Positions 47,001-48,779 of a stretch of 64,000 nucleotides of DNA are shown here, piece after piece. A program made the position numbers and the translations under genes. How positions within the stretch are numbered: the stretch's first letter is position 1; each line of letters opens with the position of its first letter. The stretch lies in contig NW_003314416.1 of assembly GCF_000143415.4 (NCBI RefSeq), positions 213,981 through 277,980 on the forward strand, written 5' to 3'. Under the pieces are notes generated by a model. The model searched no databases. It saw only the letters and a program-made list of their open reading frames with translations, and was not told where the DNA came from. The stretch is from Selaginella moellendorffii (Eukaryota > Plantae > Lycopodiophyta).

Positions 47001-48779
47001 GTGGCAACGAAACACTTCTTGTCACAACCCGACCTGAGAGGGAAACAAGGTCGGTGGGCCAATGCCTTGGCCGAGTTTGATTGCGAGATTCTGTACAAGC
47101 CTGGGAAGAGCAACATCGTGGCAGATGCGCTAAGTCGAAAAGCGAGCTTGAGGTTGGCGATCTCCAGCGCAACAGCAACCTTCAGGGACGATGTGCGGAC
47201 AGCATATGAGAATGATGGTCTAGCACAAGAAGTGTTGTTGAGGAATCTGGAGGCGCGGGAAGCTCACCAGAGAGGTGAGCTGCCAAAGGAAGAGAAAACG
47301 GGCTATGCGGAACGCAACGGACTCATTTATTACAAGCAAACGAGGGTGTATGTTCCAGAAGGGGGACTAAGGAAGGTAGCCTTAGAAGAGTGTCATGACG
47401 GACCTCTTGCGGGACACGGCGGAGTGCCCAAGACAATGGGCTTACTCAAGAGGAAGTACCATTGGCCAGATATGGCTAAGGACGTCCAAGACTATGTAAA
47501 GACATGTCCAACATGTCAGCAAGTCAAAGCCGTGACGAAGGCTAGTGGGGGCTTGTTGCAGAGCATCCCCATTCCAGATCGTCCGTGGAAATGTCTCACG
47601 ATGGACTTCATCACGGGACTACCCCCAAGCGAGGGGTTCGATGCGATATTCGTGGTGGTGGACCGATTTTCAAAGATGGCACATTTCATACCCACCACAA
47701 CGGACGTGGATGCGGAAGGTGTGGCGAAGCTGTTCTTCGAACAAGTGGTTCGAGTGCGGGGAAGGCCGGAAGAGATTATCTCAGATCGAGATAAGATCTT
47801 CACTAGTAGGTTCTGGAGGACACTCCTGGAACAGTATCGCACCAAGTTGAAATTCAGCACAGCCTATCACCCACAGACAGGTAATGGGTATTAAGTCAAG
47901 ATTGATGGCACTAACACTTCTTGACAGACGGACAAACGGAAAGGGTGAATAGGCAGCTGGAGGATTATTTGCGATGCTATGTCTCGGGAGACCAGACCGA
48001 CTGGGTAAGTCATTTGGGACTTGCGGAAATGTGTTATAACAACTCACCACATTCGAGCATCGGGGTGAGTCCATGGGAAGTCATCAATGGGCGAGCTATT
48101 GAAGGTCCTGTGGAACTCGGCATGGCCGAGTATCATGGAGAGTTACCCGCAGTGGAGGCATTCATGGCGGAAATACTCAACATTTGGAATCTAGTGAGGG
48201 ATTCCTTGGAACGGGCTCAACAAAGGCAAACTAAGTACGCGAACCAAAAGTGTCGGGATGTGGAGTTCCAAGCTGGGGAGAAGGTGTGGCTGAACACCAA
48301 GAACCTCAGGCTACCAAGTGGGATCAGCCGAAAGTTGACCCAAAGGTAAAAATGCATGTATTCCTATAAATGAATTGATCTTGAGTTCCTTAAGCAGGTT
48401 CGCGGGGCCTTACGAGATTGAGGCACGAATCGGTAAAGTGGCTTACCGACTCCGACTTCCTCGAGAGATGGGGAAGATGCACCCAGTGTTCCACGTGAAC
48501 TTACTCAAGCCGTACTTTGAGGATCCGCTTCGCAAGGACCAAGTAAGACCTTTACCCGAGGTTATCCAAGGGGAAGAGGAATACGAAGTCGAGGCCATCC
48601 TCAATGCGCGCAAGAGCAAGCGACAAGGACGCGAGGTGAGAGAGTTCCATGTGAAATGGAAAGGATTTCCACACTGCGAAGCAACATGGGAACCGGAGGA
48701 GAACCTAGCGAACGCGCGAGATCTAGTGGAGGAATTTCTGCAAGGCAGAACTCTATGTACTTATGCAAAGTTCAATTAA
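44007..48779 (+). CDS. gag-pol: Gag-Pol-chromodomain, spliced (exons 44007-47880, 47928-48345, 48398-48779); one in-frame TGA at 44271-44273
   Basis: [76 protein letters not shown]; chromodomain [30 protein letters not shown]. Confidence 0.9.
47881..47927 (+). other. Spliceosomal intron (47 nt) in integrase core
   Basis: GTAATG...CTAAC...TTGACAG; removing it gives the canonical [13 protein letters not shown]. Confidence 0.88.
48346..48397 (+). other. Spliceosomal intron (52 nt) before the GPY motif
   Basis: GTAAAA...TTAAGCAG, AT-rich; removing it gives the canonical RKLTQRFAGPY. Confidence 0.88.

What the first reader, a model, noticed from the sequence alone, without database searches (positions are those of the whole stretch)
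47881..48397. Recently active LTR retrotransposon whose integrase needs two spliceosomal introns removed
Seen: two AT-rich inserts of 47 and 52 nt, bounded by GT..AG (the first has a CTAAC branch point), break the pol frame. Exact excision restores the conserved motifs YHPQT-DGQTER and KLTQR-FAGPY. The LTRs are nearly identical and the TSD is intact, so the element integrated recently with the introns in place. Established: LTR elements copy themselves through RNA, so introns are normally lost; splicing in copia/EVD and Ogre acts at the gag/PR-RT level, not inside integrase. Inference: the element must translate a spliced mRNA while packaging an unspliced genome, a retrovirus-like RNA-sorting system.
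Basis: partly seen in the sequence, partly recalled or inferred. Interest (0 to 1): 0.9.

Follow-up and report, generated by a model that had tools for sequence, protein, structure and literature searches.

The report
Retrotransposon splices out its primer site
A recently inserted plant LTR retrotransposon carries two tiny introns inside its integrase gene and a third across its reverse-transcription primer site, all three cut out exactly in contigs of one likely RNA run, so the spliced message would make the enzyme but could not be copied, which likely explains how an element that copies itself through RNA keeps its introns.

Summary
Observation confirmed and extended. Both inserts (47881-47927, 48346-48397) are GT..AG, and read through them integrase aligns with intact relatives (no gap in 175 of 175 and 119 of 161). 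One contig of a probable RNA run skips both exactly; a DNA run shows no depth loss over them. It removes the 5' LTR's terminal CA and the whole tRNA-Met primer site. Best reading: spliced RNA is message only, unspliced RNA alone is copied, so introns persist. The element matches published SM1-Galahad of Selaginella moellendorffii by lengths (3885-bp ORF, 309-bp chromodomain ORF). That paper found no intact copy and never mentions introns, so the inserts are family-wide and apparently unrecognised. Limits: one run, guessed to be RNA; the three skips lie on two contigs; two raw RNA runs barely cover the element; this copy has a gag stop; no direct alignment to SM1-Galahad; packaging untested. 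The scan holds no look-alike of this sequence; it noted untested intron-like segments near primer sites in fungal elements. New variant of a known kind; interest 0.8.

The parts
42795..42799 (+). target-site duplication, left (ATTCC)
42800..43947 (+). 5' LTR, 1148 nt, TG..CA, with 12-mer tandem repeat and poly-G run
43908..43973 (+). intron 0 (66 nt, AG|GTAAGC..TTTTCCTCAG|): removes the last 40 nt of the 5' LTR with its terminal CA, and the primer-binding site; its acceptor lies outside the LTR, so it exists only at the 5' end
   Evidence: X15 record 9 pieces 43331-43902 and 43972-44736 with 3 letters between = net 66 nt; ends and slide test
43951..43962 (+). primer-binding site TGGTATCGGAGC (tRNA-Met type by recalled consensus; SM1-Galahad is published with a tRNA-Met site)
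   Evidence: PMC3350952
44007..47880 (+). gag-pol coding exon 1: Gag, CCHC, protease, RT, RNase H, integrase HHCC and first two catalytic Asp; in-frame TGA at 44271-44273 in this copy
   Evidence: Pfam
47881..47927 (+). intron 1 (47 nt, phase 1), splits HPQT-x-GQTE four codons before the catalytic Glu; in-frame TAA at 47892-47894; flanked by a 5-nt direct repeat
   Evidence: skipped in X15 record 13
47928..48345 (+). coding exon 2: rest of integrase core with catalytic Glu, and helical linker
   Evidence: 74 full-length relatives at 30-57% identity
48346..48397 (+). intron 2 (52 nt, phase 2) at an AG|GT site, in the integrase SH3-like domain
   Evidence: skipped in X15 record 13
48398..48779 (+). 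coding exon 3: SH3-like C-terminal domain and chromodomain
   Evidence: PF24626, PF22938, PF00385
49170..49183 (+). polypurine-tract region before the 3' LTR
   Evidence: sequence
49184..50379 (+). 3' LTR, 1196 nt; carries the same splice donor (50340) but not the acceptor
50380..50384 (+). target-site duplication, right (ATTCC)

Best explanation
This Ty3/gypsy chromovirus carries three short GT-AG introns, all skipped exactly in contigs of one likely RNA run, and likely uses host splicing as a switch between message and genome: spliced RNA would encode the whole Gag-Pol with active integrase and chromodomain but lacks the primer site, so only unspliced RNA would be reverse-transcribed and the introns are inherited. 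Shown: the three introns, their exact removal in run X15, their position (one over the LTR end and primer site, one before the catalytic Glu, one in the SH3-like domain), their presence in the bulk of genomic copies. Inferred: that the three are removed from the same molecule; that the primer-less RNA is a dead end for replication (it also lacks the U5 end needed for integration); that unspliced RNA is exported and packaged, perhaps making Gag, protease and RT itself with a dead 1295-aa integrase stub, while full integrase (1557-aa polyprotein) comes in trans; and that RNAs which lose the integrase introns but keep the primer site are rare.
For: table 8: X15 record 13 is 47555-47875 | 47923-48343 | 48396-48736 with no letters between (skips of 47 and 52); record 9 is 43331-43902 | 43972-44736 with 3 letters between (net 66). 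All three can be placed on GT..AG; chance per skip about 0.8%, 1.0% and 1.2%, about 1e-6 together. X15 depths in the three bins (5.85, 7.17, 6.94) equal those computed for complete skipping, so no intron-holding contig was laid there. DNA run X1 shows bin ratios of 1.13, 0.90 and 1.06 against neighbours where X15 shows 0.66, 0.77, 0.74, and none of the three skips is among the 15 best-supported of 84 joints. The published consensus of SM1-Galahad has ORFs of 3885, 316 and 309 bp; this copy gives 3885, 318 and 309. Homologue collinearity. The PBS and U5 att site are required cis elements (PMC12789967 passages; established knowledge).
Against: Only one run shows the skips, as assembled contigs at depth about 9, 95-99% like this copy, and its RNA status is the tool's guess. 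Intron 0 and introns 1-2 lie on different contigs. Raw RNA runs X23 and X24 laid only 63 and 21 reads (about 12% of each run read), mostly on the LTR with loose ends from another locus; depth over the introns was at most 1.1 and no joint was listed. X1 counts were incomplete and 69 joints were not shown, so rare intron-less copies are not excluded; X1 bin depths vary by about 12%. Intron 0 has no CTRAY-type branch motif. No unspliced RNA was seen in X15. This copy has a gag stop. No near relative was found to test conservation of the introns.
Confidence: 0.65

Rival explanations
1. [quoted passage not shown]
For: BARE1 copies only an uncapped, unspliced pool (PMC3735527 abstract and discussion). 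U1 binding to an LTR donor blocks 5' polyadenylation in foamy virus and HIV-1 (PMC3694450 passages). The donor is in both LTRs.
Against: The acceptor lies 11 nt behind the primer site with a pyrimidine tract, and X15 shows only the spliced form there. This reading does not exclude the best one: a primer-less RNA still cannot be copied.
Confidence: 0.2
2. The family is non-autonomous: the inserts crippled integrase, the element spread on proteins of an intact sister (SM2-Galahad, single 4731-bp ORF), and splicing is incidental host processing of AT-rich inserts.
For: No intact SM1-Galahad was found and SM2-Galahad is intact; this copy has a gag stop; short direct repeats flank introns 1 and 2 as for insertions; a non-coding family with the same primer site and polypurine tract lies in the window.
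Against: Removal restores a 1557-codon frame exactly, and sequence behind both inserts stays open with intact integrase, SH3-like and chromodomain motifs, which a long-dead gene would not keep; three canonical splice pairs by accident are improbable.
Confidence: 0.1
3. The X15 contigs come from a processed, intron-less DNA copy rather than from current mRNA.
For: X15 is only guessed to be RNA; its contigs differ from this copy by 2-5%.
Against: Only 7 of 71,979 X15 records were laid, against 84,693 of 2,800,581 in DNA run X1, unlike DNA of a high-copy family. A processed copy would itself record splicing at the same three sites.
Confidence: 0.05

Closest known systems
SM1-Galahad (Galadriel-clade chromovirus of Selaginella moellendorffii; PMC3350952)
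   Same: About 7.5 kb; LTRs over 1 kb with poly-G; tRNA-Met primer site; ORF of 3885 bp/1295 aa stopping before the chromodomain; further ORFs of 316 and 309 bp. This copy: 7580 bp, 1148/1196, 3885, 318, 309.
   Different: The paper reads it as three ORFs with no intact copy; 'intron' and 'splic' occur 0 times in its main text. The introns, including the one over the primer site, are what is new. Identity rests on lengths and features, not on an alignment.
BARE1 (barley Ty1/copia; PMC3735527)
   Same: Separate RNA pools for translation and replication; a small (104-nt) intron; spliced RNA not found as genomic DNA.
   Different: BARE1 sorts by two TATA boxes and the R region, and splicing switches pol off; here splicing is needed to make integrase and deletes the primer site.
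Ogre (legume Ty3/gypsy Tat lineage) and EVADE
   Same: Plant LTR elements with functional introns; Ogre needs splicing for full polyprotein.
   Different: One intron between gag-protease and RT (Ogre) or a Gag-only splice (EVADE); none reported inside the integrase core or across the primer site in the passages read.
Foamy viruses (Spumaretrovirinae)
   Same: Major splice donor inside the LTR (R region), Pol from a spliced RNA and packaged in trans; a splice from R necessarily drops the primer site (my inference).
   Different: One long splice gives a Pol-only subgenomic RNA; here a 66-nt micro-intron removes only the LTR end and primer site and leaves Gag-Pol fused, with two more host-type introns in integrase.
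Cer1 (C. elegans Ty3/gypsy; PMC10309623)
   Same: Multi-exon spliced mRNA beside an unspliced genome.
   Different: Its spliced RNA encodes a dedicated export protein; no such extra ORF was seen here.

Membership tests
Ty3/gypsy chromovirus | Gag-PR-RT-RH-IN order with C-terminal chromodomain | tested here: met
   Pfam on the three coding pieces
Ty3/gypsy chromovirus | TG..CA LTRs, PBS, PPT, 5-bp TSD | tested here: met
SM1-Galahad | 3885-bp/1295-aa first ORF without chromodomain, then ORFs of 316 and 309 bp | tested here: met
   3885 bp/1295 codons (through one in-frame stop), 318 and 309 bp; the paper gives 113 aa for the 309-bp ORF, ours is 103 aa
SM1-Galahad | About 7.5 kb, LTRs 1076/1146 with poly-G run of 11-25, tRNA-Met PBS | tested here: met
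   7580 bp, LTRs 1148/1196, poly-G run, PBS
SM1-Galahad | Over 80% nucleotide identity to the reference | not testable with these tools
   No sequence in the paper's supplement text; REXdb FASTA too large to read
SM1-Galahad | Host is Selaginella moellendorffii | tested here: inconclusive
   No named near-identical protein. A neighbouring Tat element has the extra RNase H between protease and RT, the club-moss/gymnosperm layout
Galadriel clade | RT-RH phylogeny with reference Galadriel elements | tested here: inconclusive
   Tree of 41 rows: element joins Riccia and four unnamed rows (92/89), sister to a mainly angiosperm group (100/98); no labelled Galadriel reference was in the tree; the clade name comes from PMC3350952
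U2-type spliceosomal intron | GT..AG ends, AT-rich body | tested here: met
   all three
U2-type spliceosomal intron | Branch-point motif near the 3' end | tested here: inconclusive
   CTAAC in intron 1, TTGAT in intron 2, none of this type in intron 0
U2-type spliceosomal intron | Exact removal in RNA | tested here: met
   X15 contigs; one run, RNA status a guess; not seen in raw reads, which barely cover the sites
Split RNA pools (BARE1/foamy type) | Packaged, reverse-transcribed RNA is the unspliced one | not testable with these tools
   Only indirect: genomic copies keep the introns
Ogre | Tat-lineage element with intron between gag-protease and RT | tested here: not met
   Chromovirus; protease to RT is uninterrupted

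The most novel reading that the evidence does not exclude
A micro-intron that excises the primer site and LTR end is a built-in RNA-fate switch: every RNA that enters splicing becomes replication-dead message. That shields all downstream introns from loss by reverse transcription, so the element can gain and fix host-type introns even inside the integrase active site, and must supply integrase in trans, which would favour non-coding parasites such as the neighbouring family.
Probability: 0.5. Interest if true: 0.9.

Novelty: new variant of a known kind. Interest (0 to 1): 0.8.

Why it matters
How an LTR element divides one transcript between translation and replication is an open question; BARE1 was reported in 2013 as the first retrotransposon case. 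This would be a simple sequence-level answer, testable by RT-PCR and long reads. It breaks the working rule that sense introns are purged from retroelements, gives a natural setting for watching intron gain with a single-ORF sister (SM2-Galahad) as control, and warns that families filed as having no intact copy may be intact but spliced.

Tried and rejected
No whole genome was held, so copies could not be counted one by one. No listed holder run is on record as RNA ('no RNA holder listed'). Of 24 listed runs, 4 were laid; probable RNA runs X16-X20 and runs X2-X14 were not, so the splicing is unreplicated. X23 and X24 were uninformative at the introns. Protein searches found no near-identical family member: best 120 of 7966 shown for RT-IN, full-coverage hits at most 56%; 74 of 211 candidates for exon 2, 30-57%. 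Related loci: 4 of 202 stretches in metagenome contigs (39-51%), 0 of 6 in viral contigs; none breaks at the intron positions (L002-L004 change frame elsewhere). The window's two other gypsy integrases run through both positions unbroken. No special fold at the primer-site intron (z -1.33). No canonical poly(A) signal in the LTR, so R/U5 borders are unknown. Rejected: assembly errors or ordinary frameshifts (exact canonical skips, family-wide); programmed ribosomal frameshifting (47- and 52-nt inserts with stops); inserts private to this copy. My first guess of a gag frameshift was wrong: it is an in-frame stop. Ten paper searches listed no report of these introns; only open-licence PMC and bioRxiv were searched, and Repbase/REXdb entries could not be seen.

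Full report
OBSERVATION. The element spans 42800-50379 (7580 bp) between two ATTCC copies. Its LTRs (1148 and 1196 nt, TG..CA) match at 1140 of 1147 aligned bases, with a 48-nt indel in a tandem repeat. Pfam finds Gag, zinc knuckle, protease, RT, RNase H and integrase in the long frame, nothing in the middle piece, and SH3-like and chromo domains in the last. The two inserts are as described: 47 nt (38% GC, phase 1, in-frame TAA at 47892-47894) and 52 nt (31% GC, phase 2), both GT..AG. With X at the junctions, 175 of 175 homologues spanning the first and 119 of 161 spanning the second align without a gap (194 proteins given). The first insert falls between the second catalytic Asp and the Glu of the D,D-35-E triad (positions; triad assignment is established knowledge). 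This copy has an in-frame TGA in gag (44271-44273).

SPLICING EVIDENCE. No genome was held. Of 24 listed runs, four were laid on 43250-49270. In X15 (contigs; RNA is the tool's guess; 7 of 71,979 records laid), record 13 skips 47 and 52 nt with no letters between, and both cuts slide onto the GT..AG ends. In DNA run X1 (84,693 of 2,800,581 records laid) depth over the inserts is 0.90 and 1.06 of the neighbours, against 0.77 and 0.74 in X15; neither skip is among the 15 joints shown of 84, and ten X1 contigs carry a 1-nt length variant at 48348, inside intron 2. X1's counts were incomplete, so rare intron-less copies are not excluded. Raw RNA runs X23 and X24 laid 63 and 21 reads, with depth at most 1.1 over the introns and no joint listed: uninformative.

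THE THIRD INTRON. X15 record 9 breaks between 43902 and 43972 with 3 letters between, a net loss of 66 nt. The sequence has AG|GTAAGC at 43908 and TTTTCCTCAG| ending at 43973, exactly 66 nt; the three unplaced letters fit 43903-43905, where the two LTRs differ at 43905 (inference). This intron holds the last 40 nt of the 5' LTR, its terminal CA and the whole primer site (43951-43962). The acceptor lies outside the LTR, so the intron exists only at the 5' end. X15 depths in all three bins equal the values computed for complete skipping. Random deletions of 47, 52 and 66 nt can be placed on GT..AG in 46 of 5534, 53 of 5529 and 67 of 5515 positions.

MECHANISM. Reverse transcription starts at the primer site, and integration needs the U5 end (PMC12789967, passages). 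An RNA spliced at intron 0 has neither. If it also loses introns 1 and 2 it encodes a 1557-aa polyprotein with complete integrase. Unspliced RNA keeps the primer site but stops at 1295 aa, before the catalytic Glu. So the message cannot be copied, the genome cannot make integrase, and progeny inherit all introns. Inferred, not shown: that the three splices occur on one molecule (two contigs, depths 8.91 and 9.36), that unspliced RNA is exported and packaged, and that RNAs spliced only in integrase are rare. The last is the weak point, since one such RNA could found an intron-less lineage; ordered splicing or selection must be invoked. Short direct repeats flank introns 1 and 2, as expected of gains by insertion (inference).

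WHAT IS KNOWN. PMC3350952 (passages; section 2.1 whole; supplement searched) describes SM1-Galahad of Selaginella moellendorffii: hundreds of copies, no intact one found, consensus 7.5 kb, poly-G LTRs, tRNA-Met site, ORF 3885 bp/1295 aa, then ORFs of 316 and 309 bp, the last with the chromodomain. This copy gives 3885, 318 and 309 bp. A multi-copy consensus that stops at the same codon implies family-wide inserts. 'Intron' and 'splic' occur 0 times in that text. No direct alignment was possible; the unread REXdb files may bear on classification. A neighbouring Tat element has the club-moss/gymnosperm layout (PMC6317226 passages). The RT-RH tree (41 rows: the element and 40 hits that I picked from 194) puts the element with Riccia and unnamed rows, sister to a mainly angiosperm group. 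A 2025 review says plant LTR elements generally lack introns, naming Ogre and EVADE as exceptions (PMC12786077, passages). BARE1 has separate pools by two promoters (PMC3735527, abstract and first part of the discussion). Foamy viruses have the donor in R and a spliced pol RNA (PMC3694450, PMC7828637, passages). Cer1 has a spliced export factor (PMC10309623, passages). Also seen as passages without bearing on the result: PMC2864245, PMC9289625, PMC5310277, PMC4408406. Ten searches listed nothing on introns in this family, inside an LTR-element integrase, or excising a primer site; subscription literature was not covered.

EARLIER SCAN NOTES. No look-alike sequence and no note on this genome. 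Word searches returned fungal LTR elements with intron-like repeats near the primer site and a spliced intron in a tyrosine-recombinase element; these are unchecked notes on other DNA. The primer-site reading was noted.

VERDICT. Real introns in a known family that was read as broken; about 0.9 for the two integrase introns, 0.8 for the primer-site intron, 0.65 for the whole switch. It works like BARE1 or foamy-virus RNA partition but by a different device. New variant of a known kind; interest 0.8.

Noticed in passing
window 1-6255; related pieces 21867-23582 and inverted 24624-26406: A non-coding LTR family (longest plus-strand stop-to-stop frame 110 aa in 196-4344) shares the primer site, polypurine tract, LTR tandem repeat and two 3' blocks (74-75%) with the element: likely a non-autonomous partner. 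It keeps an AG 10 nt behind the primer site but has no GTAAG donor.
   Followed up: partly
window 33668-39835 (-): Tat-type gypsy element with an 1847-aa open frame and an extra RNase H (PF13456) between protease and RT, the TatI/TatII layout; gag piece upstream.
   Followed up: partly
window 48840-48881: A strong AAG|GTAAGC donor in the 3' untranslated region, with possible acceptors 36-42 nt on: candidate fourth intron; X15 has no coverage there.
   Followed up: no
window 50340-50387: The 3' LTR's copy of the donor could pair with a TAG in the flanking DNA 48 nt on, splicing read-through RNA into the neighbour.
   Followed up: no
window 51187-52230, 6228-6932, 63732-63999: Pieces of a repeated gene matching unnamed protein P0195 (89-96%); 6228-6929 hits DUF7869. 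Possibly a DNA-transposon gene (recalled resemblance, untested).
   Followed up: partly
window 43417-43772: Runs X23 and X24 hold stranded reads on this LTR stretch with fixed loose ends on both sides: an LTR fragment inside a transcript of another locus.
   Followed up: no
window 9149-15110 and 52968-61606: Fragmented non-chromovirus gypsy pol pieces and degenerate LINE-like frames on the minus strand (by eye).
   Followed up: no
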